Shown: piece by piece, positions 2,482-64,000 of the stretch
Numbering within the stretch: position 1 is the stretch's first letter
Layout of the letters: every line of letters starts with the position of its first letter
From: Acidobacteriota bacterium
GTDB taxonomy: Bacteria; Acidobacteriota; Vicinamibacteria; Vicinamibacterales; 2-12-FULL-66-21
Direction: 5' to 3'
DNA: 64,000 bases
NCBI GenBank assembly: GCA_003223835.1
Contig: QHWR01000040.1
Coordinates: forward strand, 15,134 to 79,133
Translations under genes and position numbers: made by a program
Notes under the pieces: model-generated
Database searches by the model: none
Told to the model about the DNA's origin: nothing
Seen by the model: only the letters and a program-made list of their open reading frames with translations

Positions 2482-2523
2482 GGCTTTGGGCTTTAGGCTT
2501 GAACCCTCTAGAGTCCAAGGCCT
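2482..2523. repeat. Short heptad repeat (GGCTTNN x3) with a weak inverted partner, nuoB-nuoC spacer
   Basis: ggctttg ggcttta ggcttga accctctagagtcc aaggcc. A small member of the same class of element. Confidence 0.5.
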
Positions 2524-5513: not shown

Positions 5514-5518
5514 GCCAC

Positions 5519-37462: not shown

Positions 37463-41343
<3,881 letters not shown>

Positions 41344-41346
41344 TCA

Positions 41347-41449
41347 GTCCCTCGTCCCTAGTCCCTCGTCCCGAGTCCCTCGTCCCCAGTCCCTCGTCCC
41401 CAGTCCGGCGTCCTTGGGACCCGAGACGAGGGACTAGGGACTAGGGACT
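41347..41449. repeat. Heptad-armed hairpin: (GTCCCNN) x~10 facing (GGGACNN/TAGGGAC) x~4
   Basis: gtccctc gtcccta gtccctc gtcccga gtccctc gtcccca gtccctc gtcccca gtccggc gtccttg | gggaccc gagac gagggac tagggac tagggac. Fills the whole 90-bp spacer between the convergent TonB receptor and selA. The last four selA codons (AVPSP*) lie in the right arm. Confidence 0.9.
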
Positions 41450-42837
41450 GCCGAGTGTCGCAGCAACTCGCGTAGTTTCGCGTCGTCCTGCGGCAGTACC
41501 GTCCTGAGGTCCAGCACGACCCGATCGTTTTCGATCCTGGCGATGACCGGCGGGTCGAGCGCGCGCAGGCGCTGTTCGATTTGATCCGCGGTCAGGTCGT
41601 CGCGCGTCAACTCCAATAGCCGTGTCGGCAGCGCGGACCCCGGGGCGCTTCCGCCGCCGATCGTGGACTCGCCGTCGACGAGGCGCGTCCGCCACGGCGT
41701 CCCGCGAAGCGCCGACGCGAGCGCCTCGGCACGGCGGCCGATCTCCTCCGCCGTCAGCGCGATCATCCGCACCACCGGTACTTCCTCGCATCCACGCCCG
41801 ATGGCGTGCTGCTCGAGCGTCGCCTCGAGCGCCGCGTACGTCAGCTTGTCCACGCGGAACGCGCGCATCAGCGGGTGCAGGCGGATCCGATCGAGCGGCT
41901 CGCGACGCCCGGCGATGATCCCCGCCTGCGGTCCGCCGAGCAGCTTGTCGCCGCTGAACGTGACGACGTCCGCGCCGGCCTCGACGCTCGCGGACACGAT
42001 CGGCTCGTCTGCGAGCGGCGGAGGCGTGCGGTCGCGCTCCGGCCATCCCAGCCACCCGCTGCCGAGATCTTCGGCGACCGCGACGCCGAACCGGCGCCCG
42101 ATTGCGACGAGGTCCTCCAGCGACGGCCGTTCCGTGAACCCCGAGATCCGGAAGTTCGACGGGTGGACGCGCAGGATGAGCGCCGTGCGGCCGGTGATCG
42201 CCGCGGCGTAGTCCGCCGCGCGCGTCCGATTGGTGGTGCCGATCTCGCGCAGAATCGCGCCGGACTGCGCCATGACGTCGGGGACGCGGAACCCGCCGCC
42301 GATCTCGACCAGCTCGCCGCGCGAGATGATCACTTCCCGTCCCGCCGCGAGGGCCGCCAGCGTCAGCATCGCGGCCGCGGCGTTGTTGTTGACGACGACC
42401 GCGGCTTCGGCGCCGGTGAGCCGCTGGAGCAGGCGCTCGGCATGGGTGTCGCGGCGGCCGCGCGCGCCGGCCTCGAGGTCGTATTCGAGGTTCGTGTACC
42501 CGGCGGCGACGTCCGCGACGCGTGCGGCGGCCGCCGCGGAGAGCGGCGCGCGTCCGAGATTCGTGTGCACGATGACGCCCGTCGCGTTGATCACGCCGAC
42601 GAGCGACGGGCGCATCGCGGCGCGAAGCCGCGATTCCGCGCCGCGCTCGATCTCGAAAACCGCATCGTCCACGGCGATCGCCGCGAGGCCGCCGGAGGCG
42701 AGGCGATCGCGGAGGGCGGCGGTTTCGGCGCGCAGCGCGTCCACGAGCGCCGCGCGGCCGTAGCGCGCCTCGAGCGCGCGCATCGCGTCGCGCTGCCGCA
42801 GCTGTTCGATGGCGGGGATCACACGAAGGTCAGCCAT
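41434..42837 (-). CDS. selA: L-seryl-tRNA(Sec) selenium transferase
   Basis: Start taken at MADLRVIPAIEQLRQRDAM… (ATG 42837). Contains …INATGVIVHTNLGRAPL…, …NNNAAAAMLTLAALA… and …VVTFSGDKLLGGPQAGII… (PLP lysine), the SelA signature. The track's 5' extension to 42924 reads through a repeat element. Confidence 0.9.
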   Translation of the reverse strand: MADLRVIPAIEQLRQRDAMRALEARYGRAALVDALRAETAALRDRLASGGLAAIAVDDAVFEIERGAESRLRAAMRPSLVGVINATGVIVHTNLGRAPLSAAAAARVADVAAGYTNLEYDLEAGARGRRDTHAERLLQRLTGAEAAVVVNNNAAAAMLTLAALAAGREVIISRGELVEIGGGFRVPDVMAQSGAILREIGTTNRTRAADYAAAITGRTALILRVHPSNFRISGFTERPSLEDLVAIGRRFGVAVAEDLGSGWLGWPERDRTPPPLADEPIVSASVEAGADVVTFSGDKLLGGPQAGIIAGRREPLDRIRLHPLMRAFRVDKLTYAALEATLEQHAIGRGCEEVPVVRMIALTAEEIGRRAEALASALRGTPWRTRLVDGESTIGGGSAPGSALPTRLLELTRDDLTADQIEQRLRALDPPVIARIENDRVVLDLRTVLPQDDAKLRELLRHSAVPSP

Positions 42838-42850
42838 GAGAGATGCGCTA

Positions 42851-42939
42851 GAATGACGAATGCCGAATGTCGAATGCCGAACGTGAACCGAGTGCCGATT
42901 CAGATCTCTTTCGGCATTCGGCATTCAGCATTCGGCATT
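42851..42939. repeat. Heptad-armed hairpin: (GAATGNC) x4 facing (GNCATTC) x4
   Basis: Left arm gaatgac gaatgcc gaatgtc gaatgcc (42851..42878). Right arm ggcattc ggcattc agcattc ggcattg (42912..42939). Lies in the divergent spacer between selA and the 42953 gene. Confidence 0.9.
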
Positions 42940-42952
42940 GTCAGAATATCAA

Positions 42953-43396
42953 ATGAGCAGCGACAATCCCCAGGAGGGCGGCGCGCCCGCCGTGCCGGTG
43001 CCGGATTATCGGCCGCTGGAGCGGTTCTGGCCGTACGTCGATCTGCCCGAGCAGCCGAGCGACGAGGAGCTCGCCGCGCTCGACCCGGAGCTCGCGGAAG
43101 CGCTGTTCGGGGCGCCGCGTCTGCCGTTTTCCGTCACGATTGAATTCTCGCCGTTCGACGCGCCGGATTTCGCGCGCGCGATCGAGCTGGCGCGCGGCTC
43201 CCGCGAGTACCGCGAGATCGGCGCCGGCGACCGCCGCCGGCTCCGCGCGCGCTTCTACCCGCAGGACGCCGTCCGCCTGCGCGACTTCTTCGACATCGTC
43301 GGGCGCTTCGACTCGACGGACGTGCTGATCGACGACCGTCCCGTCCCGTACGCGCGCGAACTCTGGCTGCCGCTCATATGGTTTCTGATTCGGTAA
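42953..43396 (+). CDS. Hypothetical protein (147 aa)
   Basis: ATG 42953 (MSSDNPQEGG…). Acidic and Pro-rich N-terminus; no family recognised. Bracketed on both sides by heptad-armed hairpins. Confidence 0.5.
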   Translation: MSSDNPQEGGAPAVPVPDYRPLERFWPYVDLPEQPSDEELAALDPELAEALFGAPRLPFSVTIEFSPFDAPDFARAIELARGSREYREIGAGDRRRLRARFYPQDAVRLRDFFDIVGRFDSTDVLIDDRPVPYARELWLPLIWFLIR

Positions 43397-43467
43397 CAGC
43401 TTCCAGCTGCCAGCTTCCAGCTTCCAGCTCGGAACCATGGAACCGTTGGCCGGGAGCTGGTAGCTGA
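43397..43467. repeat. Heptad-armed hairpin: (CAGCTNC) x5 facing GAGCTGG TAGCTGA
   Basis: Left arm cagcttc cagctgc cagcttc cagcttc cagctcg (43397..43431). Loop ggaaccatggaaccgttggccgg. Right arm gagctgg tagctga (43454..43467). Occupies the whole spacer from the stop at 43396 to ATG 43473. Confidence 0.9.
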
Positions 43468-43472
43468 AGACG

Positions 43473-44063
43473 ATGGCCGATCCCTCCGACCTGCAGAAAG
43501 ATCTCCAGACGCTCGCCGCGGAACTGAAGCGGCTCGAGGCGGAGTACAACATGTTCTTCGCCGGCCGGCTGCCGCGTCCGCCCTGGGAGACACGCGGGCG
43601 CGTGGAGGCGATGTTCAAGCGGTGGGACCGCGGCGTGATCCAGTCCACCGGCGATCGGTTCCGGTTCGAGACGCTGCAGTCGCGGTATCAGGCGTTCGTC
43701 GAGCTGTGGGATCGCGGGCTGAAGGCGCGCGAGGAAGGACGGCCGGGCCCGTTCGCGCAGCCGCCGCCGAAGGAGATCAAGCGCAGGCACAAGGAGCCCG
43801 ACGCCAAGGTGCTGCACGTGACCGCGTTCACCGATCCGATGCGCGAGATGGACAAGCTGCACTCGCTGTACGATTCGCTGATGGACGCGCGGCGCGAGTC
43901 GGGCGAGGACGTCGTCCCGTTCCATCGCTTCGCCGCGCTCGTGAAAGATCAGGTCAGCAAGCTGCGCGAGGAAGGCAGCCCCGAGGTCGCGTTCCGCGTC
44001 GCGAAGAACAAGCACGGCAAGGTGAACTTTACGGTGCGGGCGACGAAGGGCGGGAAAGAGTGA
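43473..44063 (+). CDS. Hypothetical protein (196 aa), coiled-coil-like N-terminus
   Basis: MADPSDLQKDLQTLAAELKRLEAEYNMFFAGRLPRPPWETR…; no family recognised with confidence. Confidence 0.55.
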   Translation: MADPSDLQKDLQTLAAELKRLEAEYNMFFAGRLPRPPWETRGRVEAMFKRWDRGVIQSTGDRFRFETLQSRYQAFVELWDRGLKAREEGRPGPFAQPPPKEIKRRHKEPDAKVLHVTAFTDPMREMDKLHSLYDSLMDARRESGEDVVPFHRFAALVKDQVSKLREEGSPEVAFRVAKNKHGKVNFTVRATKGGKE

Positions 44064-44127: not shown

Positions 44128-44334
44128 TCAGCTGACTTTGGTGACGTTGCCGGCCTGCGGGCCCTTCGGACCGTCAACGATCTCGAACTCGACCGCCTGG
44201 CCTTCTTCGAGCGTCCGGAACCCGTTGCCCTGGACCGCCGAGAAGTGGACGAAGACGTCGCTGCCGCCGTCGCGCTCGATGAATCCGTAGCCCTTGGCGT
44301 TGTTGAACCACTTGACCTTGCCTGTGATACGCAT
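44128..44334 (-). CDS. cspA: Cold-shock protein (CspA family)
   Basis: [68 protein letters not shown], with RNP1 (KGYGFI) and RNP2 (VFVHF) motifs. Start taken at the internal Met of track ORF 44128..44433. Confidence 0.95.
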
Positions 44335-46048: not shown

Positions 46049-47697
46049 TGACGCGACGAGCGACGCTGACGGTCATCCTCGCGCTCGCCTCGATCCTCTT
46101 CTTCGTGGATCTCGGCGGCACCTCGATATGGGACGCGAACGAAGCGTTCTACGTCGAAACGCCGCGCGAGATGCTCGAGGCGCACGACCTCATCAACCCC
46201 ACGTTCGACTACGAGCCGCGCTTCAACAAGCCGGTGCTCAGCTACTGGGTGGTTGCGGCTTTCTACAAGCTGTTCGGCGTCTCCGTCGCCGTGCAGCGAA
46301 TCCCTATCGCCATCGGAGCGTTGATCATCGTCGCCTGCGCGTTCTTCCTCGCGCGTGCCGCCGCCGACGGGGGACTTGGGACGCGGGACGAGGGACGAGG
46401 GACGAGGGACGCGGCGTTGTGGGCCGCCGCCGGCCTCGCCGTTTCCCCCCGGCTGGTGATGTTCGCGCGCCGCATCTTCATCGACATCTGGATCACGGCG
46501 TTCATGTCGCTGACGCTGCTCTTCTTCGCGTTGAGCGAACGTCATCCGGAGAGGCGGCGGTTGTTCCTGATCCTGATGTACGTTGCCGCGGGGCTCGGGA
46601 CGCTGACGAAGGGCCCCGTCGCGATCGTGCTGCCCGCCCTCGCATTCCTCCTGTATCTGATCGTCCATGGGGAACTGCGTCGCCTTCGGTCGATGATGCT
46701 GCCGCTCGGCGTCGTCATCGTCTGCGCCGTCGTGGTGCCGTGGTATCTGGCGGTGTACCACCAGCACGGCTGGCCCTACATCAAGGCATTCTTCATCGGC
46801 GAGAACATCGGGCGCTACACGTCCGGCGTCGGCCTGCAGCAGGAGCGCGGTCTTCTGTTCTATCCGCCGATTATCCTCACCGACTCGTTGCCGCTGTCGT
46901 TTTTTCTGGTCGCCGCGGCGGCGTGGTGGTGGCGCGAGAGCCGGATCCAGACGCTCCTCTGGATCTGGATTGCCGTCATCGTGCTGTTCTTCTCGTTCTC
47001 GGCGAACAAGCAGGATCTGTACATCTACCCGATCGTGCCCGCGGTCGCCGCGCTCGCCGGTGCGTTCCTCTCGCGCGTTGAGGCGGATTCCTCGGGACCG
47101 TTCGCGTGGTGGGCGGCCGTCACGGCCGGCGTCGCCGGGATCTTCCTGGCGGCGGCCGGCGCCGGCGTGCTGTACGTGTTCGAGACGGCGGGCCGGGTGT
47201 ACGCGCTCAACGGCGCGATCGCCATCGGCGTCGTCGGCGTGTGCGGGGGTCTAATCGCGTTTGCGCTCGCCGTCGCGCGGAAGCCGCTGGCGTCGACGTT
47301 CACCCTGCTCATCCTGATGGTCGCGCTCGACTGGACGTTCGTGCTGCGCGTCTTGCCGGACTTCGAGCGCAACAAACCGGTCCCCGGGATCAGCGAGACG
47401 CTTCGCGCGCGCCTGCGTCCGGACGACGTCGTCGCCGTGTTTCACGAGGCGGTGCCGAGCCTCGTCTACTATCTGCGGCGGCACGTGGACATGTACATCG
47501 ACCCGCGCGCGTTCGTCGAGGCGATGTCGCAGCCACGGCGCGTCTACGGCGTGCTGACGCTCAGCGATTACGACGAGCTGCGCCCGCAGATCTCGAGGCC
47601 GACGTGCATCATCGATCGGCGGCCGACCTTCGCCGGAGCTGTTGCTCATTACGAACGATTGTGGCCGACGATAGGTTCGGGGTTCCTGAAACAGTGA
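46048..47697 (+). CDS. Glycosyltransferase family 39 (ArnT/PMT-like, undecaprenyl- or dolichyl-phosphate sugar dependent)
   Basis: ATG 46048 (TGATG overlap with the purH stop). MTRRATLTVILALASILFFVDLGGTSIWDANEAFYVETPREMLE…FNKPVLSYWVVAAFYKLFG…LGTLTKGPVAIVLPAL… is typical of GT39/PMT_2. Polytopic membrane protein. Confidence 0.8.
   Translation: MTRRATLTVILALASILFFVDLGGTSIWDANEAFYVETPREMLEAHDLINPTFDYEPRFNKPVLSYWVVAAFYKLFGVSVAVQRIPIAIGALIIVACAFFLARAAADGGLGTRDEGRGTRDAALWAAAGLAVSPRLVMFARRIFIDIWITAFMSLTLLFFALSERHPERRRLFLILMYVAAGLGTLTKGPVAIVLPALAFLLYLIVHGELRRLRSMMLPLGVVIVCAVVVPWYLAVYHQHGWPYIKAFFIGENIGRYTSGVGLQQERGLLFYPPIILTDSLPLSFFLVAAAAWWWRESRIQTLLWIWIAVIVLFFSFSANKQDLYIYPIVPAVAALAGAFLSRVEADSSGPFAWWAAVTAGVAGIFLAAAGAGVLYVFETAGRVYALNGAIAIGVVGVCGGLIAFALAVARKPLASTFTLLILMVALDWTFVLRVLPDFERNKPVPGISETLRARLRPDDVVAVFHEAVPSLVYYLRRHVDMYIDPRAFVEAMSQPRRVYGVLTLSDYDELRPQISRPTCIIDRRPTFAGAVAHYERLWPTIGSGFLKQ
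46371..46412 (+). repeat. In-frame (GGGACNN) x6 heptad array inside the GT39 coding sequence
   Basis: gggactt gggacgc gggacga gggacga gggacga gggacgc, 42 nt or 14 codons (GLGTRDEGRGTRDA), inserted in a loop after a TM helix. The core is the same as the right arm of the 41347 element. Confidence 0.85.
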
Positions 47698-52086: not shown

Positions 52087-53817
52087 ATGTCTGTCGCGCT
52101 GTTGTTCGTCGTTTCGCTGAGTTTTCCCGCCTCCGCCCCGAATCAGGCCGACCAGCCGACCGCGGCGTACTACTTCCTGCTGGGCAGAACGCTCGAAGGC
52201 AAAGGCAAGATCGACGACGCGATCGCCGCGCACCGCCAGGCGATCCAGCTCGATCCGAAGTCCGCCGAGCTGCACGCCGAACTGGCAGGCCTCTTCGCGC
52301 GGCAGGAGCGCGCGCCGGAGGCGTTCGACGAGGCGCGCGCGGCGCTCGACCTCGATCCGCAGAACGTCGAGGCGAATCGCATTCTGGGCACCGTGCTCGC
52401 GGCGTACGCGGACCAGCGGCGCGTGTTGAAGCCGGGCGACGATACGTCGACGTACATGCGGCGCGCGATCGGCGCGCTCGAAATCGCGCGGCGCGACGGC
52501 TCCGTCGATCTCAACACCGACCTCGCGCTCGCGCGTCTGTATCTGCAGGACCATGCCCCCGGGAAGGCCGCGCCGCTCCTCCGCCACATCCTCGACGATC
52601 AACCCGGCTTCGGCGAAGGCTATCTGCTGCTCGCGCAGGCGCAGGAGGAATCCGGTCATCCCGACGACGCGATCAATACGCTGAAAGCCGTCGTCGGCGA
52701 GGAGCCGACGTTCTATCGCGCCGTCGTCCGCCTCGCGGAGCTGTACGACGCGCACCGTCAATGGACGGAGGCGGCCGAGACGTGGTCGCAGGCGCAGAAG
52801 ATCAATCCGCGCAATCCCGACCTCGTGAGCCGCCGCATCACGGCGCTCATCAACAGCGGCAAGGCGGGGGACGCGCGCGCGGAATTGCAGATCGCGCTCA
52901 AGGCGCGGCCCGACGACCCGTCGCTCTTGTATCTCCTCGCGCAGGCGGAGCGCCAGGCGGGGGACTGGGACGCCGCCGAGGCGACGGCGCGTCAGCTCCA
53001 GAAGGCGGAGCCGAACGGCATCCGCGGACTTTACGTGCTGGCGCAGATTCTCGAGACGCGCAACCGTCACCAGGAGGCCGTCGCCCTGCTCCAGCCGGAG
53101 ATCGCGAAGCGCCGCGGCAACGCGGACGCGGGCTCCGGCGTCGCGCTGCTCCTCGGCACCGAGGGGCTCGCGCTGCAGGGACTGAAGAAGCATGACGAGG
53201 CCATCGCCGCGTTCAAGGAGGCGGCGGAGCTTGCGCCGGACGATCCGCTGCGGCAGGTCCTGCTGATCCAGAGCTACACCGAAGCGCGCCGGTTCAAGGA
53301 CGCGATCGCGGCGGCGGCCGCGGCGCAGAAGAGATTTCCTGACGACACGAGCGTCCTGTATCAACTCGGCGCCGCGTACGATCGCGGCGGGCAGCAGGTC
53401 GAAGCCGAGAAAACGTTCCGCGATCTGCTGCGGCACGACCCGCTCGACGCCAACGCGCTGAACTATCTCGGCTACATGTTCGCGGAGCGCGGCCGTGACC
53501 TCGACGAGGCCGTCGCGCTCATTCAGCGCGCGCTGAAAATCGATCCCGCCAACCCGTCCTATCTCGACAGCCTGGGCTGGGCGTACGTGCAGCAGGGGCA
53601 CCTCGATCTCGCCGATCAGCCCCTGACGGCGGCGGCGGATCGGCTGCCGAAGAACTCGGTCGTCCAGGATCATCTGGGCGACCTGCGTCAGAAGCAGCAT
53701 CGGCCCGCCGACGCGATCGCGGCGTGGCAGCGCGCGCTCGCCGGCGACGGCGAGGAGATCGACCGTGGCAAGATCGAGAAGAAGATAAAAGAGGCACAGG
53801 CGCTGCTGAGGAAATGA
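52087..53817 (+). CDS. Tetratricopeptide-repeat (TPR) protein, secreted
   Basis: Start MSVALLFVVSLSFPASAP (ATG 52087). Many TPR units (…AIAAHRQAIQLDPKSAELHAELAGLF…, …ALNYLGYMFAERGRDLDEAVALIQRALKIDPANPSYLDSLGWAY…). Occupies the position of the TPR gene that precedes lolB-ispE in many Gram-negatives. Confidence 0.85.
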   Translation: MSVALLFVVSLSFPASAPNQADQPTAAYYFLLGRTLEGKGKIDDAIAAHRQAIQLDPKSAELHAELAGLFARQERAPEAFDEARAALDLDPQNVEANRILGTVLAAYADQRRVLKPGDDTSTYMRRAIGALEIARRDGSVDLNTDLALARLYLQDHAPGKAAPLLRHILDDQPGFGEGYLLLAQAQEESGHPDDAINTLKAVVGEEPTFYRAVVRLAELYDAHRQWTEAAETWSQAQKINPRNPDLVSRRITALINSGKAGDARAELQIALKARPDDPSLLYLLAQAERQAGDWDAAEATARQLQKAEPNGIRGLYVLAQILETRNRHQEAVALLQPEIAKRRGNADAGSGVALLLGTEGLALQGLKKHDEAIAAFKEAAELAPDDPLRQVLLIQSYTEARRFKDAIAAAAAAQKRFPDDTSVLYQLGAAYDRGGQQVEAEKTFRDLLRHDPLDANALNYLGYMFAERGRDLDEAVALIQRALKIDPANPSYLDSLGWAYVQQGHLDLADQPLTAAADRLPKNSVVQDHLGDLRQKQHRPADAIAAWQRALAGDGEEIDRGKIEKKIKEAQALLRK

Positions 53818-54638
53818 AGGCAGGAGGCACAAGGCAGAAGGCAACCGCATCGGGATGGCTTGCGGCGTTCTGCCTTTTCCCTTTTGCCTTCTGCCTTTTT
53901 GCGTGCACGCCGAAGCCGCCTGCCCTTCCCGCTGGTGCCGCGTCGCCGTTTCCGGAATATCAACAGGCGTGGACCGAGGCGACGCGCGAGTGCGCCGGAG
54001 TCCAGACGTTGACGGCGTCGCTCGCGATGTCGGGGAAGGTCGCGAAGACAACGCTGCGCGGACGAATCGACGCCGGGTTCGCCGCGCCATCGAGCCTCAG
54101 GCTCGAAGCGGTCGCGCCGTTCGGCCGGCCGGTGTTCGTGCTGGTCGCCACCGGCGACGCCGGCACGCTGCTGCTCGAGCGCGACAACCGCGTGCTGCGC
54201 GGCGCGCGTCCGGCGGACATCGTCGAAGCGCTGGCGGGGGTGCCGCTCGGCGCCGCCGACCTCCGGGCGGTCGTGACCGGCTGCGGGCTGTGGGCCGCCG
54301 CGTCGCCGCACGAGGGGCGCCGGTACGCCGACGGATGGGCGGCGGTCGATCTCGATGACGGCACGGCATTCCTGCGGCAGGCGAACGCCCGCTGGCGGAT
54401 CGCCGCCGCTTCGTCGCCCCACATGACGGTGCGATACGATCTCGATCGCGACGGGCGTCCGTCCACGATTCGCATTTTCACCGATGCGTCCACGACCGCG
54501 GCCGACCTCACGCTGCGCGTCTCACAGGTCGACATCAACGTCACCCTCACTCCGCGAACGTTCACCATCGACGTCCCGCGTGACGCAGCGCCGATCACAC
54601 TCGACGAACTCAGGCGCGCCGGCCCGCTGGGACGCTGA
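53814..54638 (+). CDS. Outer-membrane lipoprotein, LolB-like by position (DUF4292/LolB-type)
   Basis: ATG 53814 (ATGA overlap with the TPR stop). N-terminus MKAGGTRQKATASGWLAAFCLFPFAFCLFAC has a lipobox-like LFAC. Followed directly by ispE. The family call rests mainly on synteny. Confidence 0.6.
   Translation: MKAGGTRQKATASGWLAAFCLFPFAFCLFACTPKPPALPAGAASPFPEYQQAWTEATRECAGVQTLTASLAMSGKVAKTTLRGRIDAGFAAPSSLRLEAVAPFGRPVFVLVATGDAGTLLLERDNRVLRGARPADIVEALAGVPLGAADLRAVVTGCGLWAAASPHEGRRYADGWAAVDLDDGTAFLRQANARWRIAAASSPHMTVRYDLDRDGRPSTIRIFTDASTTAADLTLRVSQVDINVTLTPRTFTIDVPRDAAPITLDELRRAGPLGR
53816..53898. repeat. Heptad-armed hairpin (NNAGGCA x4 / TGCCTNN x4) overlapping the lipoprotein signal peptide
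   Basis: Left arm aaggca ggaggca caaggca gaaggca (53816..53843). Right arm tgccttt tcccttt tgccttc tgccttt (53871..53898). The right arm encodes FCLFPFAFCLF. Confidence 0.88.
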
Positions 54639-55693: not shown

Positions 55694-55768
55694 TGGGGCG
55701 TGGCCAAGCGGTAAGGCGCGGGACTTTGGATCCCGTATTCGGAGGTTCGAATCCTCCCGCCCCAACCA
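55694..55768 (+). tRNA. tRNA-Gln (anticodon UUG)
   Basis: 75 nt, folded by hand:
- Acceptor stem: TGGGGCG / CGCCCCA
- Anticodon arm: CGGGA-CTTTGGA-TCCCG (UUG)
- T arm: GGAGG-TTCGAAT-CCTCC
- Discriminator A and an encoded CCA
Sits between ispE and prs as in many Gram-negative genomes. Confidence 0.92.
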
Positions 55769-56801: not shown

Positions 56802-57418
56802 ACACTGCAAGCGGGCGGCTGCGTGCCGCGGGCCGGATCCCGGCCGTCCTCTACGGCACGCACAAGGGGAAGGCCACCGAGATCGCGGTCGATCCGAAGG
56901 CGCTCCTGCGCATCCTGCACTCCGACTCCGGGGTCAACACGCTCATCGGGCTGAGCGTCGACGGATCGGCGACGCGCGTGCTCGTCAAGGAGTACCAGCT
57001 CGACCCGATCGATCACAAGCTGCTCCACGCGGACTTCTATCAGGTCGCGATGGACAAGGCGATCACCGTCACCGTGCCGATCGTGCTCAAAGGTGAACCG
57101 AAGGGCGCCAAGCAGCAGGGCGGGATCGTCGACTTCGTCAATCGTGAGATCGAGATCGAGTGTCTGCCCGGCGACATCCCCGAGCACGTCGACGTGGACA
57201 TCAGCGAGCTGATGCTGCACCAGGGCGTGCGCGTGCGCGACCTCGTCCAGGGCGTGAAGTGGACGGCGATCAGCGACCCCGACATGATGATCGTGCACGT
57301 CGTGACGCTGAAGGCGGAGGAGGAGCCGAAGCCGGCCGAGGCCGCCGCCGCCGCGCCGGCCGCGCCCGCCGAGCCCGAGGTGATCAAGAAGGGCAAGACG
57401 GAGAAAGAAGAAGAATAA
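56793..57418 (+). pseudogene. rplY: 50S ribosomal protein L25 / general stress protein Ctc, frame broken near 56812
   Basis: ATG 56793 gives MEATLQA. The L25 sequence then continues in another frame (…RLRAAGRIPAVLYGTHKGKATEIAVDPKALLRILHSDSGVNTLIGLSVDG…, the C-terminal part of track ORF 55772..57418). About 12 residues of the usual …R…GKG.ARRLR… segment are missing. Confidence 0.85.
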
Positions 57419-57426
57419 TTGGTGGA

Positions 57427-57456
57427 TTGGTGAAGTGGTGATCACCAACTCACCAA
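57427..57456. repeat. Near-perfect 30-nt palindrome built from TTGGTGA/TCACCAA repeats
   Basis: ttggtgaagtggtgatcaccaactcaccaa, with a further ttggtgga copy just upstream. Lies between the ctc stop (57418) and the pth ATG (57456). The centre GTGGTGATCACC recurs at 59506..59517. Confidence 0.85.
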
Positions 57457-58055
57457 TGAAGCTCGTTGTCGGCTTGGGCAATCCGGGCAGGAAGTACGAA
57501 GGGACGCGGCACAACGCGGGATTCGCGGTCATCGACGCGCTGGCCGCGCGTCACCACGTCGACTGGGAGGCGGCGCCGCGCGGGATCGAGGCGCTCGTCG
57601 CGCGCTGGCGGACCGCCGACGTCGTCTTCGCCAAGCCGCTGACGTTCATGAACAGCAGCGGCCCGGCGGTCGCCGCGCTGCTGCAGTTCTACAAGGTCGA
57701 CCCGGCGGAGCTGCTCGTCGTCGTCGACGAAGTGAACCTCGAGCTGGGGCGGCTGCGCACGCGCGCGAGCGGATCGGCCGGCGGCCACAACGGCCTGAAG
57801 TCGGTCGTCGCGGCGCTCGGGGGCGACGGGTTCGCGCGGATGCGCGTCGGCGTCGGGCGCGGCGACGCGAGGCGCGACCTCGCGGATCACGTGCTGGCGA
57901 GATTCGAGACGTCGGAGCGCGCGGTCGTCGACGAAACGATCGGGCGCGCCGCCGACGCGGTGGAGCTGTTCATCAACGAGGGCATCGTCCCCATGATGAA
58001 CCGGTACAACAGGAAAGACGACAGCGGGATCGACCCGACAGAATCGTCTCCTTGA
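57456..58055 (+). CDS. pth: Peptidyl-tRNA hydrolase
   Basis: [30 protein letters not shown]…[10 protein letters not shown]… is canonical Pth. Start taken at the internal ATG of track ORF 57435. Confidence 0.95.
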
Positions 58056-58880: not shown

Positions 58881-58964
58881 GACACGAAGACACGAAGGTA
58901 CGAAGGATACGAAGAAAACACATTTGGCTTCGTGTGCTTCGTTGGCTTCGTGATCTTCGTGATG
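58881..58964. repeat. Repeat-armed hairpin: (NNACGAAG) x4 facing (CTTCGTNN) x4
   Basis: gacacgaa gacacgaa ggtacgaa ggatacgaa gaaaacacatttg gcttcgtgt gcttcgttg gcttcgtgat cttcgtgat. Lies between rpsR and rplI. Confidence 0.9.
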
Positions 58965-58994: not shown

Positions 58995-59410
58995 ATGGAA
59001 GTGATTCTTCGAGAACATGTCGAAAAGCTCGGCAAACGCGGCGACGTCGTCAGGGTCGCCGAGGGCTACGCGCGCAACTACCTGCTGCCGCGGAAGCTGG
59101 CGCTTGCCGCGAGCGCAAGGTCGCCGAGGTGCGCGAGGCCGAAGAGAAGTCGCAGGCCGACGCGATCGCGCAGCGGCTGAACGCGCTCGAGATCGAGATC
59201 GGGCGCCGCGTGGGGGAGCACGAGACGCTGTACGGTTCGGTCACCTCCGCCGACATCGCGCACGCGGTGCAGGCGAAAGGGTTCGACGTGGACAAGCGCA
59301 AGATCGTGCTCGCGGAACCGCTCAAGGCGCTGGGCGAAACGATGGTCACCGTGAAAATTCACCGCGACGTGACCGCGCAGGTCAAGGTCAAGGTCGTCCC
59401 GCAGACGTAA
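58995..59410 (+). pseudogene. rplI: 50S ribosomal protein L9, frame broken near 59113
   Basis: [40 protein letters not shown] (frame of track 58932..). Continues in another frame as …[63 protein letters not shown]… (track 59129..59410). About 10 residues of the linker helix are missing. Confidence 0.87.
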
Positions 59411-59443
59411 AGGCCGTCGTGTCCCAGAACGAGCGCTGAATTT

Positions 59444-59517
59444 CACCACAGAGCCAACAGAGAACACAGAGGCCGACTCAGTTTTCTGTGACCTCTGTTT
59501 CCTCTGTGGTGATCACC
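59444..59517. repeat. Repeat-armed hairpin: (NNNACAGAG) x3 facing (CTCTGTNNN) x3, ending in GGTGATCACC
   Basis: caccacagag ccaacagag aacacagag gccgactcagtttt ctgtgac ctctgtttc ctctgtggtgatcacc. Begins 34 nt after the rplI stop. Confidence 0.9.
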
Positions 59518-60967: not shown

Positions 60968-62160
60968 TCCGGCCGACCGTCGCGCGCGTCGACCTTCAGG
61001 CCATCGAGTCGAATCTGCGCGCGATCGCCGCATTTCTTCTCGGTCCCCGGTCTCCGGTCGCCCCGCCTCCGCCGCCTGGCGGCGACGGCGAGGCCTCGCC
61101 AGAGCCCGCGCCGCATTCAACGCGGGCGGCGGCGGGTCCTCGAATCATCGGTGTCGTCAAGGCGAACGCCTACGGCCACGGCGCTCGGGAAGTCGGCCTC
61201 GCGCTCGAGCGCGCGGGGGCGGCCGTGCTCGCGTGCGCGGATATCGAGGAGGGGATCGCGCTGCGCGACGCCGGCGTCCGCGCCCCGATTCTGGTGTTCG
61301 GCGCGCTCGGCATCAGCGACCTCGACGGCCTCTTCACGCACACGCTGACGCCGACGATTTCCACGCCGTCCGCGGCGGCCGCGTTGCAGCAGGCCGCGGC
61401 ACGCCACGCCACGGTGCTCCGCTGTCATCTCAAGATCGACACGGGCATGAACCGCCTCGGCTTCCGGCACGACAACCTCGCGCGGACGATTCCCGAAGTC
61501 GCGTCCAGCCGCAACCTCGCGATCGACGCCGTCTACACGCACTTCGCGACCGCCGACGATCCCGACGGCGACATGTTCGCGGTCCAGCGCGAGCGCTTCG
61601 AGCGCGCGTGCGCGGAGGTCAGCGCGCTCGGGATTCGACCGGCGTCGCGTCACGCCGCGAACAGCGCCGCCCTCCTGCGCGACGAGCGGGTCTGGTACGA
61701 CTTCGTCCGCCCCGGACTGCTCCTCTACGGCATCGTCCCGCCGCCGCTCGCCTCGACGCTGCGGCTGCGACCCGCCCTGTCACTCCACAGCCGTATCGTC
61801 CATGTGAAAGGGATGCGGCCCGGCGAGGGCACGGGCTACGGGCTCAAGACCGTCGTCGATCGTCCGGCGACGATCGCCGTCGTGCCCGCGGGGTACGCCG
61901 ACGGCCTCGATCGCCGGCTCGCGGGCGCCGGCGCGATGCTGGTTCGCGGCCGCCGCGCCCCCATCGTCGGATCGGTGTGCATGGACATGACGACGATCGA
62001 CGTCACCGGGATGGATGTGTACCCGGGCGACGAGGTGGTGATTGTCGGCGAGCAGGACGGCGCGTCGATCGGCATGCGCGAGATGTCCGCCGCGATCGGC
62101 ACGATCCCGTACGAGCTGCTTTGCCGCGTCGGCACGAGGATTGAAAGGCTCTACGATTGA
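60964..62160 (+). CDS. alr: Alanine racemase (with a ~35-aa Pro/Gly/Ala-rich insertion near the N-terminus)
   Basis: GTG 60964 (GTGA overlap with dnaB). Contains …[14 protein letters not shown]… (PLP lysine), …[13 protein letters not shown]… and …GYADGL…[11 protein letters not shown]…. The insertion is [35 protein letters not shown] at about 61036..61140. Confidence 0.92.
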
Positions 62161-62652
62161 AGATTGGCGATTGGCGATTGGCGATTCACGAATTGACGAT
62201 TACAGGATTGCCGATTCACGGATTGACGAATACCGATTGCCGATTCACGAATTGACGATTACGGGATTGCCGGTTTACGGATTCACGAATACAGATTGCC
62301 GATTCACGAATTGACGATTACAGGATTGCCGGTTTACGGATTGACGAATTGAGGATTGCCGATTGACGGATTGCCGAGTGCGGATTGGCGGTTGCCAATC
62401 GTCAACACGCCAATCGTCAACACGCCAATCGTCAATGCCCCAATCGTCAATATGCCAATCGTCAATACGCCAATCGTCAATGCCCGAATCGTCAATGCCC
62501 GAATCGTCAATGACCCAATCGTCAATGACCCCAATCGTCAATTGCCCAATCGTCGATCCGTCAATCGTTAATCGCCAATCGTCGATCCGTCAATCGTTAA
62601 TCGCTAATCGACAATTCGTGAATCTTCAGTCTCCAATCGCCAATCGCCAATG
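62155..62652. repeat. ~490-bp palindromic tandem-repeat array (15-bp period; core GATTG/CAATC) filling the alr-radA spacer
   Basis: - Left arm (62155..62389): alternating 7/8-mers such as gattggc, gattcac, gaattgac, gattaca, ggattgcc…
- Dyad: gattggc-ggtt-gccaatc at 62383..62400.
- Right arm (62394..62650): CAATCGTCAANNNNN at a strict 15-bp period (starts 62396, 62411, 62426 … 62516).
- Outermost pairing: gattggcgattggcgatt (62162..) is complementary to aatcgccaatcgccaat (62633..).
- Overlaps: covers the alr stop and the radA ATG. Confidence 0.92.
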
Positions 62653-64000
62653 AAAGCGAAGATTGTCTACGTGTGCCAGGAATGCGGCGCGCAGGCGCCG
62701 AAATGGCTCGGACGCTGCGCGGACTGCGGCGCGTGGAACTCCCTCGTCGAGGAACGCCCGGTGCCCGTGGGGGCCGGGGCGGGCGCGGCGGCGGGAGCCG
62801 CGGCGGAGCGGTACGCACTGGCTGCCACATCGGGGCCGCGGCTGTACGCGGAAATTGACACTGTCGTCGCCGAGCGGCTGTCCACCGGCATCGGCGAGTT
62901 CGATCGCGTGCTCGGCGGCGGGGTCGTGCCCGGATCGCTGGTGTTGATCGGCGGCGAGCCCGGCATCGGGAAGTCGACGCTGCTCCTGCAGGCGGCCGCG
63001 CACTTCGCGCACGCGATCGGCCCGGTGCTCTACAGCTCCGGCGAGGAATCCGAGCACCAGATCAAATCGCGCGGCCAGCGGCTCGGCGTCGCCGCCGCTC
63101 CTCTTTATCTGCTCGCCGAAACGTGCCTCGAGCGGATCCTCGAGGAGATCGCGCGGCTGCGCCCCAGGTTCGTGATCGTGGACTCCGTGCAGACGGTGTT
63201 CTCGCTCAAGTTCCAGTCGGCGCCCGGCAGCGTCGGTCAGGTGCGCGAGGCCGCGACGCAGCTGCTCTTCGCGGCGAAGGGGCAGAACATCCCGACCTTC
63301 CTCGTCGGCCACGTCACGAAGGACGGCAGCCTCGCGGGTCCGAAAGTCCTCGAGCACATCGTGGACACGGTCCTCTATTTCGAAGGCGAGAAGCACCACT
63401 CGCACCGCGTCGTCCGCGCGGTCAAGAACCGGTTCGGCGCGATCAGCGAGCTGGGCGTCTTCGAGATGACGGGACAGGGGCTGCGCGCGGTGCCGAATCC
63501 GTCGCAGCTCTTTCTCGCCGAGCGTCCCGCGAACGCGCCTGGCTCCGCGGTGCTCTGCTGCGTCGAGGGATCGCGGCCGCTGCTCGTCGAGGTGCAGGCG
63601 CTCGTGAGCACGAGCAGCTACGGCAACGCGCGCCGGATGGCGAGCGGGCTCGATCAGAATCGGCTGTCGCTGCTGCTCGCCGTCCTCGAGAAGCGCGCGG
63701 GGCTGAACCTGATGGCGGAGGACGTGTTCGTCAACGTCGCCGGCGGCATGTCGATCGAGGAGCCCGCCGCGGACCTTGCGGTCGTCGCCGCCGTCGCGTC
63801 GAGCGTCCGCAACCGCCCGATCAAGCCGGGGACCGCCGTCTTCGGCGAGGTCGGGCTCGCCGGCGAGGTGCGCGGGACGACGCAGGCGTCGCTGAGGGTG
63901 AAAGAGGCGGGGCAGCTCGGGTTCACGCGCGTCGTGATGCCCGAGGCCAACATCGTCCCCGGCGAGGCGCCCGACGGGTGCGAGCTGGTCGGCGTCAGGA
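62650..64000 (+). CDS. radA: DNA repair protein RadA/Sms (3' end beyond the window)
   Basis: Absent from the track because it runs off the end. From ATG 62650: MKAKIVYVCQECGAQAPKWLGRCADCGAWNSL (zinc ribbon), …LIGGEPGIGKSTLLLQ… (Walker A), …HVTKDGSLAGPKVLEHIVDTVLYFEGE… and KNRFG. Confidence 0.94.
   Translation, partial: MKAKIVYVCQECGAQAPKWLGRCADCGAWNSLVEERPVPVGAGAGAAAGAAAERYALAATSGPRLYAEIDTVVAERLSTGIGEFDRVLGGGVVPGSLVLIGGEPGIGKSTLLLQAAAHFAHAIGPVLYSSGEESEHQIKSRGQRLGVAAAPLYLLAETCLERILEEIARLRPRFVIVDSVQTVFSLKFQSAPGSVGQVREAATQLLFAAKGQNIPTFLVGHVTKDGSLAGPKVLEHIVDTVLYFEGEKHHSHRVVRAVKNRFGAISELGVFEMTGQGLRAVPNPSQLFLAERPANAPGSAVLCCVEGSRPLLVEVQALVSTSSYGNARRMASGLDQNRLSLLLAVLEKRAGLNLMAEDVFVNVAGGMSIEEPAADLAVVAAVASSVRNRPIKPGTAVFGEVGLAGEVRGTTQASLRVKEAGQLGFTRVVMPEANIVPGEAPDGCELVGVR

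What the first reader, a model, noticed from the sequence alone, without database searches (positions are those of the whole stretch)
41344..43472. Heptad-armed hairpins with locus-specific cores fill three consecutive spacers (GTCCCNN, GAATGNC, CAGCTNC)
**What is seen**
- Three spacers within 2 kb are each occupied end to end by one element of the same design. The element is a run of 4-10 tandem heptamers (5 constant plus 2 variable nt), a short loop, then the reverse-complement heptamers.
- The constant core differs at each site: GTCCC/GGGAC at 41347..41449, GAATG/CATTC at 42851..42939, and CAGCT/AGCTG at 43397..43467.
- Across the window, most such elements start within a few nt of a stop codon. 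That fits 3'-end hairpins acting as terminators or mRNA stabilisers.
- The 42851 copy, however, lies in a divergent promoter region.
- The small hypothetical gene 42953..43396 is bracketed by two of them.

**Comparison with known repeats**
- Tandem intergenic heptamers are known as STRR repeats of heterocystous cyanobacteria. As I recall, their consensus sequences are CCCCAGT, TTGGTCA and CAACAGT, which are strikingly close to the GTCCCCA, TTGGTGA and CAACAGAG units seen here.
- I am not aware of them being described as paired inverted arrays, or in a high-GC non-cyanobacterial genome.

**Open question**
- Structure is conserved while sequence is not. This suggests a generating mechanism (slippage plus hairpin selection, or a structure-specific enzyme) rather than a mobile sequence family.
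Basis: partly seen in the sequence, partly recalled or inferred. Interest (0 to 1): 0.78.

Follow-up and report, generated by a model that had tools for sequence, protein, structure and literature searches.

The report
Heptamer-repeat hairpins filling intergenic spacers
A soil acidobacterium (order Vicinamibacterales) fills many gaps between its genes with long hairpins built from locally grown 7-base tandem repeats. This kind of repeat is already known from cyanobacteria and Xanthomonas, but here almost every site uses a different repeat word and the two hairpin arms change length together between strains.

Summary
All three spacers (41345-41450, 42851-42939, 43397-43467) hold heptamer arrays facing their reverse complement, and each folds into a long imperfect hairpin (z -3.7 to -8.8). 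A simple detector finds 6 such elements in the window against 0.015 expected from shuffles. By eye there are about 10, including a ~500-nt hairpin at 62148-62657.

They are not assembly artefacts, because independent metagenome assemblies carry them. The window comes from a Vicinamibacterales genome. Relatives carry the same architecture, mostly with other cores: 96 unit classes in 132 period-7 arrays.

The arrays grow in place. A coding array differs between strains by exactly 3 heptamers. Two hairpins have strain alleles in which both arms changed length at mirrored positions.

The elements are enriched after stop codons and in convergent spacers. They lack U-tracts and sit inside conserved operons, so they are unlikely to be strong terminators.

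Hairpin-forming STRR arrays in cyanobacteria and convergent (GGGANTN)n pairs in high-GC Xanthomonas are published. The resemblance to the STRR consensus sequences is at chance level.

Verdict: a new lineage and a multi-core variant of a known, functionally unexplained repeat class. Interest is moderate.

The parts
41345..41412 (.). Element E2, left arm: 9.5 GTCCCNN heptamers with a 14-nt super-period. It starts 1 nt after the OMP stop codon (41341-41343).
   Evidence: Fold. Strain alleles have 11.5 and 13 units.
41413..41450 (.). Element E2, right arm: 5 NNGGGAC heptamers. It contains the selA stop codon (reverse-strand TAG at 41434-41436).
   Evidence: Strain alleles have 7 and 9 units.
42851..42881 (.). 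Element E3, left arm: GAATGNC x4.4, 13 nt from the selA start codon (42837, minus strand).
   Evidence: Same length in 11 strain contigs, with SNPs only.
42910..42939 (.). Element E3, right arm: GCATTCN x4.3, 13 nt before the hypothetical gene's ATG (42953). It is followed by TGATATTCTGAC on the minus strand (42940-42952), which resembles a motif conserved upstream of selA.
43397..43429 (+). Element E4, left arm: CAGCTNC x4.7, starting directly after the TAA of gene 42953-43396.
   Evidence: Same length in 11 strain contigs.
43452..43467 (+). Element E4, right arm: two reverse-complement units (GAGCTGGTAGCTG), ending 5 nt before the ATG at 43473.
2482..2522 (+). E1: a weak example. GGCTTTN x3 plus a partner, between nuoB (stop at 2479) and nuoC.
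   Evidence: Fold -24.3 kcal/mol, z -2.5.
46366..46411 (+). E5: a direct-only (GGGACGN)6 array inside the PMT_2 glycosyltransferase gene, in frame. It is 21 nt (3 heptamers) longer than in related strains.
53816..53898 (+). E6: a GAAGGCA / TGCCTTY hairpin overlapping the TGA of the TPR gene. It is the only element followed by a T-run.
   Evidence: -47.2 kcal/mol, z -4.6. Identical in 2 other strain contigs.
57418..57457 (+). E7: an ATTGGTG / CACCAAY 8-mer hairpin. It runs from the TAA of the L25/Ctc gene to the ATG of pth, and the ATG lies in the stem base.
   Evidence: Constant in 6 strain contigs.
58883..58961 (+). E8: an ACGAAG(8-9 nt) / CTTCGTG hairpin between rpsR (stop at 58849) and rplI (ATG at 58996).
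   Evidence: (-44.2 kcal/mol, z -7.2). Same length in 11 strain contigs, with 4 SNP haplotypes.
59443..59512 (+). E9: a CACAGAGNN / NNCTCTGTG 9-mer hairpin after rplI. Its stems are separated by 2x2 internal loops at the variable positions.
   Evidence: (-39.7 kcal/mol, z -8.1).
62148..62657 (+). E10: a giant imperfect hairpin. The left arm is about 239 nt of GATTG-type units (period 15/30/59). The right arm is about 260 nt of CAATC-type units (period 15). It fills the alr (stop at 62160) to radA (ATG at 62650) spacer end to end.
   Evidence: -221.6 kcal/mol, z -10.8. Strain L111 has arms of 151 and 168 nt, with mirrored 88- and 91-nt indels.
38938..41343 (+). TonB-dependent-type outer-membrane beta-barrel gene, convergent with selA.
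   Evidence: PF25183, E 2.7e-65.
41434..42837 (-). selA (L-seryl-tRNA(Sec) selenium transferase).
   Evidence: PF03841, E 9e-133. Orthologues.
42953..43396 (+). Conserved hypothetical gene (147 aa) bracketed by E3 and E4. It is the divergent neighbour of selA across the order.

Best explanation
These are STRR-like simple-sequence-repeat hairpins made in place.

**How they arise**
- In this Vicinamibacterales lineage, short words in non-coding DNA expand by replication slippage with a strongly preferred 7-nt step. The step is often two units (14 nt).
- Where an array faces its reverse complement, the pair behaves as one unit, a long imperfect hairpin. Its two arms stay matched in length, either through compensatory slippage under selection or through intra-strand template switching.
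- The arrays grow until they meet coding sequence. This is why they fill spacers from stop codon to start codon.

**What they probably do**
- The hairpins are most likely transcribed. They would act as 3'-end or intercistronic RNA structures, protecting the upstream mRNA against exonucleases and weakly insulating neighbouring genes, much as REP/BIME hairpins do.
- They do not look like efficient intrinsic terminators.

**Shown versus inferred**
- Shown: the architecture, its non-randomness, the lineage distribution, the core diversity, in-situ unit-number change, arm co-variation and the positional bias.
- Inferred: transcription, the RNA-level role and the molecular route of arm matching.
For: **Architecture and statistics**

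**Lineage-wide, with period 7 dominant**
- 244 arrays were found in 1.17 Mb of high-GC Vicinamibacterales loci.
- 68 of the 89 arrays with 4 or more copies have period 7.
- Arrays of 4 or more copies: 68 intergenic against 19 in called coding sequence, although about 80% of the DNA is called coding.
- Paired arrays: 55 intergenic against 3 coding.
- Only 1 paired array (21 arrays in all) was seen in the other 319 kb, the 19 loci at or below 63% GC, which are mainly Chloroflexi and Blastocatellia.

**Not a sequence family**
- There are 96 canonical unit classes in 132 period-7 arrays.
- The orthologous spacers flanking selA carry different cores in different genomes.

**In-situ growth**
- The PMT_2 coding array is exactly 3 heptamers (21 nt, +EGRGTRD) longer in the window than in three strain contigs, which have GGGACGC GCGACGC.

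**Arms change together**
- E2 alleles have 9.5/5, 11.5/7 and 13/9 units. The 11.5/7 allele has the same apex as the window.
- E10 alleles have arms of 239/260 and 151/168 nt. They differ by one 88-nt and one 91-nt indel at mirrored mid-arm positions, with base and apex identical.

**Constraint on arms**
- An orthologous AATGCTG hairpin keeps 88-98% arm identity between species whose coding flanks are 75-85% identical and whose loop is 44% identical.

**Positional bias**
- Convergent spacers are strongly structured in general (mean z -2.66).
- 17 of the 50 strongly structured spacers contain arrays.
- Arrays occupy 21% of convergent, 14% of tandem and 5% of divergent spacers.

**Published precedent for the same anatomy and positions**
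- Xanthomonas (GGGANTN)n convergent pairs are mostly transcribed (PMC4692102).
- Cyanobacterial STRR hairpins have been proposed to affect transcript stability or translational coupling (PMC2670836).
- Template-switch correction of imperfect inverted repeats is an established mutational route (PMC7202029).
Against: - There are no expression data for this organism, so transcription and any RNA role are inferred.
- The sense strand is not clearly favoured. The sense transcript folds better in 8 co-directional elements, the antisense in 4, with 1 tie. RNA-level selection is therefore not demonstrated, and a DNA-level role or no role remains possible.
- E3 lies in a divergent spacer. E7 and E10 bury the next gene's start codon in the stem base, which looks costly rather than helpful.
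- Many arrays in relatives are direct-only (88 intergenic arrays unpaired against 55 paired). The hairpin is therefore not obligatory.
- The mirrored indels differ in length (88 against 91 nt), and the arms of E10 have different internal periods. This fits two independent slippage events better than simple templated copying, so the arm-matching route is unresolved.
- The conservation argument rests on one orthologous element in three species.
Confidence: 0.6

Rival explanations
1. Neutral mutational by-product. A lineage-specific slippage bias (7-nt step) inflates any tolerant non-coding DNA. Inverted pairs arise by occasional inverted duplication or template switching and have no function. 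The apparent placement after stop codons only reflects where selection permits junk.
For: - Cores are hugely diverse.
- Direct-only arrays are common.
- Arrays run right up to, and even into, coding sequence (selA stop, pth and radA starts).
- An array expanded inside a gene when the change was in frame.
- Distribution among relatives is patchy.
- No strand preference is seen.
- Heptamer SSR over-representation is widespread in bacteria and has been attributed to polymerase slippage (PMC4692102 citing Mrazek 2007).
- An unrelated deltaproteobacterial MAG also has perfect (ATGGGTT)10 arrays.
Against: - Balanced two-arm changes occur in both polymorphic hairpins.
- In the one orthologous case, the arms are more conserved than the flanking coding DNA while the loop diverges.
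- Arrays are depleted in divergent spacers and enriched in convergent ones.
- Six of eight elements are length-invariant across strains.
Confidence: 0.28
2. DNA-level elements. The arrays would be cruciform- or G-quadruplex-forming, or protein-binding (nucleoid protein, gyrase, or a cold-shock-type single-strand binder with a 7-nt footprint). They would organise the chromosome or pause replication or transcription, rather than acting as RNA hairpins.
For: - Fold energies are similar on both strands.
- The GGGAC-type core of E2 and E5 matches the G-tract heptamers shown to form G4 structures in vitro in Xanthomonas and Nostoc (PMC4692102).
- The Beggiatoaceae TAACTGA paper (PMC4679880) notes that B. 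subtilis CspB can bind heptamer direct repeats, one protein per heptamer.
- REP/BIME elements bind gyrase and IHF (established knowledge).
Against: - Most cores here (GAATG, CAGCT, GAAGGCA, ACGAAG, ACAGAG, GATTG) have no G-tracts, so G4 cannot be the common feature.
- No shared sequence exists for a specific binding protein.
- The placement tracks gene ends and operon spacers rather than any chromosomal periodicity.
Confidence: 0.08
3. REP/REPIN- or MITE-like mobile elements, spread by a transposase and later diverged.
For: - The hairpin doublet architecture and extragenic 3' location resemble REPINs/BIMEs.
- The same unit is shared between different spacers of one genome somewhat more often than between genomes: 7.1% against 3.3% of pairs.
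- GAATGNC occurs at a non-orthologous spacer in L008.
Against: - There is no family consensus: 96 classes in 132 arrays.
- Arms are tandem arrays with variable unit number, not fixed-length copies.
- In-situ expansion from a local seed is directly seen.
- No terminal inverted repeat plus target-duplication signature is visible at the element edges.
- Rfam returned no hit.
Confidence: 0.03
4. Assembly or scaffolding artefact of short-read metagenomes.
For: - Contigs often end inside E2.
- The window derives from a scaffold with a collapsed N-gap elsewhere.
- The inner part of E10 is confirmed by only one other assembly.
Against: - E2-E4 and E6-E9 recur in up to 11 independent contigs from different samples, assemblers and archives, with SNP haplotypes.
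- The same architecture is present in long-read-scale contigs of relatives, for example 4-Mb contigs.
Confidence: 0.01

Closest known systems
Xanthomonas (GGGANTN)n / Nostoc GGGGA(C/T)T heptamer repeats with convergent inverted pairs (Rehm et al. 2015, PLoS One, PMC4692102)
   Same: - Tandem heptamers have some constant and some variable positions.
- Arrays run from 2 to 26 units.
- Most arrays occur as convergent plus/minus-strand pairs able to form stem-loops.
- About 90% are intergenic, a few tens of nt after the upstream ORF, and rare between divergent ORFs.
- Length and sequence vary between close relatives.
- Function is unknown.
- Xanthomonas is a high-GC non-cyanobacterium.
- The GGGACNN core of E2 and E5 is of the same G-tract type.
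   Different: - In Xanthomonas one G-rich core dominates genome-wide, and the authors framed the arrays as G-quadruplex motifs.
- Here at least 9 unrelated cores occur in 64 kb and 96 classes in 132 arrays, most without G-tracts.
- Arm-length co-variation between strains and a ~500-nt example were not reported there.
Cyanobacterial STRR sequences (Mazel et al. 1990; hairpin-forming STRRs such as hupS-hupL, discussed in PMC2670836)
   Same: - Heptanucleotide tandem arrays sit in intergenic and intercistronic spacers.
- Several unit types occur per genome.
- Some are arranged so that they fold into hairpins.
- Proposed roles are in transcript stability, termination or translational coupling.
   Different: - STRRs are defined by a few genome-wide consensus units in heterocystous cyanobacteria (low GC).
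- Here the host is an acidobacterium at 67% GC and units are nearly site-specific.
- Similarity to the STRR1-3 consensus sequences is no better than chance.
Over-represented heptanucleotide simple sequence repeats in prokaryotes (Mrazek, Guo & Shah 2007, as cited in PMC4692102)
   Same: - The 7-nt period is preferred.
- The arrays are located in intergenic DNA.
- Polymerase slippage is the presumed generator.
   Different: - That work is a statistical survey of direct repeats.
- It does not describe the hairpin arrangement, the end-to-end filling of spacers or arm coupling (as far as the citing papers show; the original could not be read here).
REP/BIME/REPIN extragenic palindromes of Proteobacteria
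   Same: - Extragenic hairpins lie at 3' ends and between cistrons.
- They can stabilise upstream mRNA without being efficient terminators. This is the working analogy for function.
   Different: - REPs are fixed-length members of a conserved sequence family mobilised by RAYT transposases.
- These elements are variable-length tandem arrays with unrelated cores, generated in place.
Intrinsic (Rho-independent) terminators
   Same: - A stable stem-loop sits immediately after stop codons.
- Convergent spacers in these genomes are strongly structured.
   Different: - There is no U-tract, except at E6.
- Stems are far longer (35-250 bp) with periodic mismatches.
- Several lie inside conserved operons.

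Membership tests
STRR (cyanobacterial short tandemly repeated repetitive sequences) | Tandem repeats with a 7-nt unit in non-coding DNA, many loci per genome | tested here: met
   - TRF and my own detector agree.
- Period 7 accounts for 68 of the 89 arrays with 4 or more copies in 1.17 Mb.
- These arrays are about 14-fold enriched in intergenic DNA.
STRR (cyanobacterial short tandemly repeated repetitive sequences) | A small set of genome-wide consensus units (STRR1 CCCCAGT, STRR2 TTGGTCA, STRR3 CAACAGT; consensus recalled from Mazel et al. 1990, not re-read) | tested here: not met
   - There are 96 canonical unit classes in 132 arrays.
- Nine classes lie within 1 mismatch of an STRR, against 5.3 expected by chance (5.5% of all heptamers qualify).
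STRR (cyanobacterial short tandemly repeated repetitive sequences) | Host range: filamentous, heterocystous cyanobacteria | tested here: not met
   - The best SelA relatives are Vicinamibacterales / Acidobacteriota MAGs at 74-78% amino-acid identity.
- The window is 64-72% GC.
Xanthomonas-type convergent heptamer pairs (Rehm et al. 2015) | Two heptamer arrays of the same unit in convergent orientation close together, able to form a stem-loop | tested here: met
   The window holds 6 detector-positive elements plus E7 and E10.
Xanthomonas-type convergent heptamer pairs (Rehm et al. 2015) | Close to the end of the upstream ORF and depleted between divergent ORFs | tested here: met
   - Elements start 0-3 nt after stop codons at E1, E2, E4, E6 and E7.
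- Arrays occupy 21% of convergent, 14% of tandem and 5% of divergent spacers.
Xanthomonas-type convergent heptamer pairs (Rehm et al. 2015) | A single G-tract core (GGGAATC) with G-quadruplex potential | tested here: not met
   Only E2 and E5 (GGGACNN) have G-tracts. The other cores are GAATG, CAGCT, GAAGGCA, ATTGGTG, ACGAAG, ACAGAG and GATTG.
REP/BIME/REPIN | Dispersed copies of one conserved imperfect palindrome per genome | tested here: not met
   Different cores occur at each of about 10 sites in 64 kb. Relatives show the same pattern.
REP/BIME/REPIN | Associated RAYT (IS200/IS605-like Y1 transposase) in the genome | not tested
   Only 64 kb of this genome is available. The window's proteins were not all scanned, and none of the 17 window proteins scanned against Pfam is a transposase.
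Intrinsic terminator | GC-rich stem-loop followed by a U-tract | tested here: not met
   The consensus scan of 41200-43600 finds no terminator-like site at any of the three elements. Only E6 is followed by TTTTT.
Intrinsic terminator | Ends a transcription unit | not testable with these tools
   - No transcript data are available.
- Positions inside nuo, the rpsF-rpsR-rplI cluster and ctc-pth argue against efficient termination.
Curated RNA families (Rfam 15) | Score at or above the gathering threshold for any family | tested here: not met
   The only hit in the window is a tRNA at 55694-55765.

The most novel reading that the evidence does not exclude
The hairpin, not the sequence, is the heritable unit. 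A sequence-independent process would build and keep balanced very long stems from locally seeded heptamers: slippage in one arm, followed by intra-strand templated or selected compensation in the other.

The cell would use these stems as modular intercistronic devices. Because each stem spans the whole spacer, it places the upstream stop codon and the downstream start codon at the base of one helix. A terminating ribosome would then unzip the stem and expose, or reach, the next start. This would give structure-gated translational coupling and mRNA protection, tunable by unit number.
Probability: 0.15. Interest if true: 0.7.

Novelty: new variant of a known kind. Interest (0 to 1): 0.5.

Why it matters
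Heptanucleotide repeats have been known to be over-represented in bacterial intergenic DNA since 1990 and 2007, without an accepted origin or function.

**What this lineage offers**
- Abundant hairpins, about one per 6 kb here.
- Dozens of unrelated cores. This rules out explanations based on a specific motif, such as G-quadruplexes or a single binding protein.
- Natural strain alleles in which both arms of a hairpin change length together.
- A coding-region array that changed by exactly three units.

**Why that helps**
- It makes the question of slippage plus structural selection against neutral junk directly testable. The tools would be long-read population data and Term-seq in Vicinamibacterales, an abundant but little-studied group of soil bacteria.

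**Practical consequences**
- The elements break short-read assemblies.
- They can mislead gene callers at stop and start codons.

Tried and rejected
**Tested and negative or inconclusive**
- **Rfam scan of the whole window.** The only hit is a tRNA.
- **Sigma-70 promoter and terminator consensus scan of 41200-43600.** Nothing was found at the elements.
- **Strand test for RNA-level selection.** I compared the sense and antisense minimum free energies of co-directional elements. The result was 8:4:1, which is not significant.
- **Covariation on the orthologous AATGCTG hairpin.** There are only 3 species, the stems are almost invariant, and only 2 pairs are compensatory, so it is uninformative.
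- **STRR homology.** Rejected as chance.
- **G-quadruplex as the common denominator.** Rejected, because most cores lack G-tracts.
- **REP/MITE mobility.** Rejected on core diversity and in-situ expansion.

**Searches that yielded little**
- **Metagenome scan for more E2 alleles with the left-flank anchor.** It returned only 2 contigs, one already held and one ending inside the array.
- **Exact-protein look-ups.** Those for pth and a short S18 start variant found nothing. One pth look-up failed on a frame error.
- **Literature.** Mrazek 2007 and Mazel 1990 are not held. One search on STRR consensus strings was swamped by unrelated primer sequences. No paper was found linking Vicinamibacter or Luteitalea with tandem repeats.

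**Technical**
- A first spacer-folding run timed out and was redone with lighter settings.

Full report
**1.

The sequence shows three elements.
- 41345-41412 holds 9.5 GTCCCNN units, followed by five NNGGGAC units up to 41450.
- 42851-42881 holds GAATGNC x4.4. After a 28-nt loop, GCATTCN x4.3 runs to 42939.
- 43397-43429 holds CAGCTNC x4.7. After a 22-nt gap come two reverse-complement units at 43452-43467.

TRF and the inverted-repeat finder give the same arrays, with arms 83-91% complementary. Each element folds into one long imperfect hairpin on either strand, at -37 to -83 kcal/mol and z -3.7 to -8.8 against dinucleotide shuffles.

Gene boundaries are as follows.
- A TonB-type outer-membrane gene ends at 41343.
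- selA occupies 41434-42837 on the minus strand, and its stop codon lies inside the right arm of the first element.
- A conserved 147-aa hypothetical gene occupies 42953-43396.
- The next gene starts at 43473.

I make three small corrections. Elements 2 and 3 have one variable position, not two. The right arm of element 3 is short. The cores are not strictly unique to a locus.

**2. It is far beyond chance, and it is real DNA**

My detector required the same 5-mer at least 3 times at period 6-9, plus its reverse complement at least twice within 150 nt. It finds 6 paired elements in the window, against a mean of 0.015 (max 1) in 200 dinucleotide shuffles. Arrays of 4 or more copies number 8, against 0.005.

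Reading the TRF hits adds more elements.
- A weak one lies at 2482-2522 (nuoB|nuoC).
- An 8-mer hairpin lies at 57418-57457 (L25|pth).
- A giant hairpin at 62148-62657 (alr|radA) folds at -221.6 kcal/mol, z -10.8.
- A direct-only array lies inside a gene at 46366-46411.

Exact-protein look-ups retrieved strain-level contigs from several ENA, JGI and NCBI assemblies. E3 and E4 are present with identical length in 11 contigs. E6-E9 are present in 2-11 contigs, differing only by SNPs. Several short-read contigs end inside E2, as expected for a repeat hairpin.

**3. Whose genome, and how widespread**

SelA's best relatives are Acidobacteriota / Vicinamibacterales MAGs at 74-78% identity.

I analysed 61 high-GC loci of that group plus the window, 1.17 Mb in all.
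- There are 244 arrays.
- Period 7 dominates: 68 of the 89 arrays with 4 or more copies.
- Arrays of 4 or more copies are 68 intergenic against 19 in called coding DNA, although about 80% of the DNA is called coding.
- Paired arrays are 55 intergenic against 3 coding.

The other 319 kb, 19 loci at or below 63% GC and mainly Chloroflexi and Blastocatellia, holds 21 arrays, only one of them paired. Within the order the distribution is patchy. Some MAGs have 10-15 arrays in 21 kb and others have none.

**4. Structure is conserved and sequence mostly is not**

The 132 period-7 arrays fall into 96 canonical unit classes.

The orthologous spacers on either side of selA carry hairpins with unrelated cores in different genomes: AAAAGT, GCACGTC, GGTGCCA, GGTGCCT, GTTCGG, GCAGATT, ACGGAT, TCGAAGG and GGCTCTA. 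In some relatives the same spacer carries ordinary non-periodic palindromes instead.

Cores are not absolutely site-specific.
- GGGAC recurs at 46366.
- GAATGNC occurs in L008 at the spacer orthologous to E4, not E3.
- Two spacers of the same genome share a unit in 7.1% of pairs, against 3.3% between genomes.

At shorter evolutionary distance a core persists. An AATGCTG hairpin sits at the same convergent spacer in L009, L014 and L051, and as a direct-only array in L008. Its arms are 88-98% identical between species whose coding flanks are 75-85% identical and whose loop is 44% identical. That is one case only, but it suggests constraint on the arms.

**5. How they arise**

The array at 46366-46411 lies inside a PMT_2 glycosyltransferase gene. 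Three strain contigs read GGGACGC GCGACGC there. The window has five to six units, exactly 21 nt (three heptamers, +EGRGTRD) more, and stays in frame. This is direct evidence for local slippage with a 7-nt step, filtered by reading frame.

E2 has at least three alleles.
- The window has 9.5 left and 5 right units.
- L083/L095 has 11.5 and 7 units, with the same apex as the window and +14 nt in each arm.
- L081/L093 has 13 and 9 units.
- Stability rises with length: -66, -104 and -114 kcal/mol.

E10 has arms of 239 and 260 nt in the window and 151 and 168 nt in L111. The two differ by one 88-nt and one 91-nt indel at mirrored mid-arm positions, with base and apex identical.

So in both polymorphic hairpins the arms changed together. 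Two routes could explain this.
- **Templated route.** Template-switch correction of imperfect inverted repeats is a known mechanism that would do this (PMC7202029).
- **Independent route.** The unequal indel lengths, and the different internal periods of the two E10 arms, fit two separate slippage events retained because they restore pairing.

I cannot separate these two routes with the data available.

**6. What they probably do**

Array-bearing spacers make up 21% of convergent, 14% of co-directional and 5% of divergent spacers. Convergent spacers in these genomes are strongly structured in general (mean z -2.66). Of the 50 strongly structured spacers, 17 contain arrays. Heptamer hairpins thus look like one way of building the hairpin that usually sits at gene ends.

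Several observations argue against strong termination.
- None of the three elements has a U-tract, and only E6 does.
- E1, E7, E8 and E9 lie between genes of conserved housekeeping clusters: nuoB|nuoC, L25|pth, S18|L9 and L9|dnaB.
- There is no clear sense-strand advantage, at 8:4:1.

E3 lies between a motif conserved upstream of selA in 28 loci and the selA ATG. The motif is GATGGTATCCTGAA, which reads as an extended -10-like TGnTATCCT and sits 9-205 nt from the ATG. Other genomes also have arrays in exactly that interval. E3 is therefore more likely a 5'-leader hairpin than a promoter element. This is inference, since the window's copy of the motif matches only 10 of 14 positions.

My best reading is REP-like. 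The hairpins would be transcribed 3' or intercistronic structures that protect and partly insulate transcripts, built from slippage-prone repeats. The neutral by-product model remains a serious rival.

**7. Comparison with what is known**

- Rehm et al. 2015 (PMC4692102) describe (GGGANTN)n heptamer arrays in high-GC Xanthomonas. They report about 186 loci, of which 70-75 form convergent inverted pairs. About 90% are intergenic, on average 28 nt after the upstream ORF, and rare between divergent ORFs. Most are transcribed, they vary between sister species, and their function is unknown.
- STRR hairpins are called 'not unusual' in filamentous cyanobacteria. Proposed roles are transcript stability, termination or translational coupling (PMC2670836).
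- Heptamer direct repeats also occur in Beggiatoaceae, Microcystis and Bacteroidetes (PMC4679880).

The similarity to the STRR1-3 consensus sequences is at chance, with 9 classes within one mismatch against 5.3 expected.

Four things are new here.
- The host lineage is new.
- The core diversity is extreme, which rules out a motif-specific explanation such as G4.
- Spacers are filled end to end, including a ~500-nt hairpin.
- Strain-level evidence shows arm co-variation and in-situ three-unit expansion.

No paper linking Vicinamibacteria with such repeats was found. The searchable library is incomplete, however.

**8. Verdict**

This is a new, multi-core variant, in a new lineage, of a known and still unexplained class of repeats. 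Interest is moderate at 0.5. It would surprise few specialists in bacterial repeats. It does offer unusually clean natural material for testing how and why heptamer hairpins form.

Noticed in passing
window 46366-46411: An in-frame (GGGACGN)6 heptamer array lies inside the PMT_2 glycosyltransferase gene. Three strain contigs have only two units, and the window has 21 nt more (+EGRGTRD in a loop after a transmembrane stretch). It has the same core as the E2 hairpin 5 kb away.
   Followed up: yes
window 62148-62657: A giant ~500-nt imperfect hairpin of GATTG/CAATC-type 7/15/30-nt units fills the alr-radA spacer, and its last unit supplies radA's ATG. Strain L111 has a version 180 nt shorter, with mirrored indels in both arms.
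   Followed up: yes
window about 59100-59110 (rplI, 58996-59410): rplI looks frameshifted. The window lacks 31 nt present in strain contigs, exactly where the same-sample scaffold (L107/L109) carries a 45-N gap. This is most likely a collapsed scaffold gap, not biology.
   Followed up: partly
window 42940-42952 (minus strand); L003-L072 upstream of selA: The motif GATGGTATCCTGAA (extended -10-like) is conserved upstream of selA in 28 Vicinamibacterales loci, at 9-205 nt from the ATG. At the shortest distances selA mRNA would be nearly leaderless.
   Followed up: partly
L006 and L053, about 11380-11560 and 5390-5560 (selA|OMP spacer): Relatives lacking heptamer arrays carry ordinary long palindromes at the orthologous convergent spacer. 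These include similar GGGCTAAAGCCC and CCGGGTCTTTAGACCCGG cores, possibly another repeat family.
   Followed up: no
L077 11471-11539 and 12415-12482: A MAG labelled deltaproteobacterial (52% GC) has two perfect (ATGGGTT)10 direct arrays 900 nt apart, plus other heptamer arrays. Heptamer arrays are therefore not confined to Vicinamibacterales.
   Followed up: no
L012 9930-9999 and 11408-11470: The same AAAAGT unit flanks selA on both sides. Upstream it forms a hairpin abutting the ATG, and downstream it is a direct array. The two could in principle pair across the mRNA.
   Followed up: no
L082, L083/L095, L088, L096 contig ends: Short-read metagenome contigs repeatedly terminate inside the E2 array, so these elements fragment assemblies of this group.
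   Followed up: partly
window 44128-44334 (minus strand): A 68-aa cold-shock-domain gene lies 0.7 kb from E4. Cold-shock proteins bind about 7-nt stretches of single-stranded nucleic acid (noted in PMC4679880). The proximity is probably coincidental.
   Followed up: no
window 21571-34878, repeat at 22299-22424: A giant ORF of about 4,400-4,700 aa contains a 66-nt (22-aa, D/G-rich) tandem repeat.
   Followed up: no
window 57435-57458: Gene callers in other assemblies start pth at a GTG inside the E7 hairpin (206 aa) or at the ATG in its stem base (199 aa). The hairpins blur start-codon annotation.
   Followed up: no
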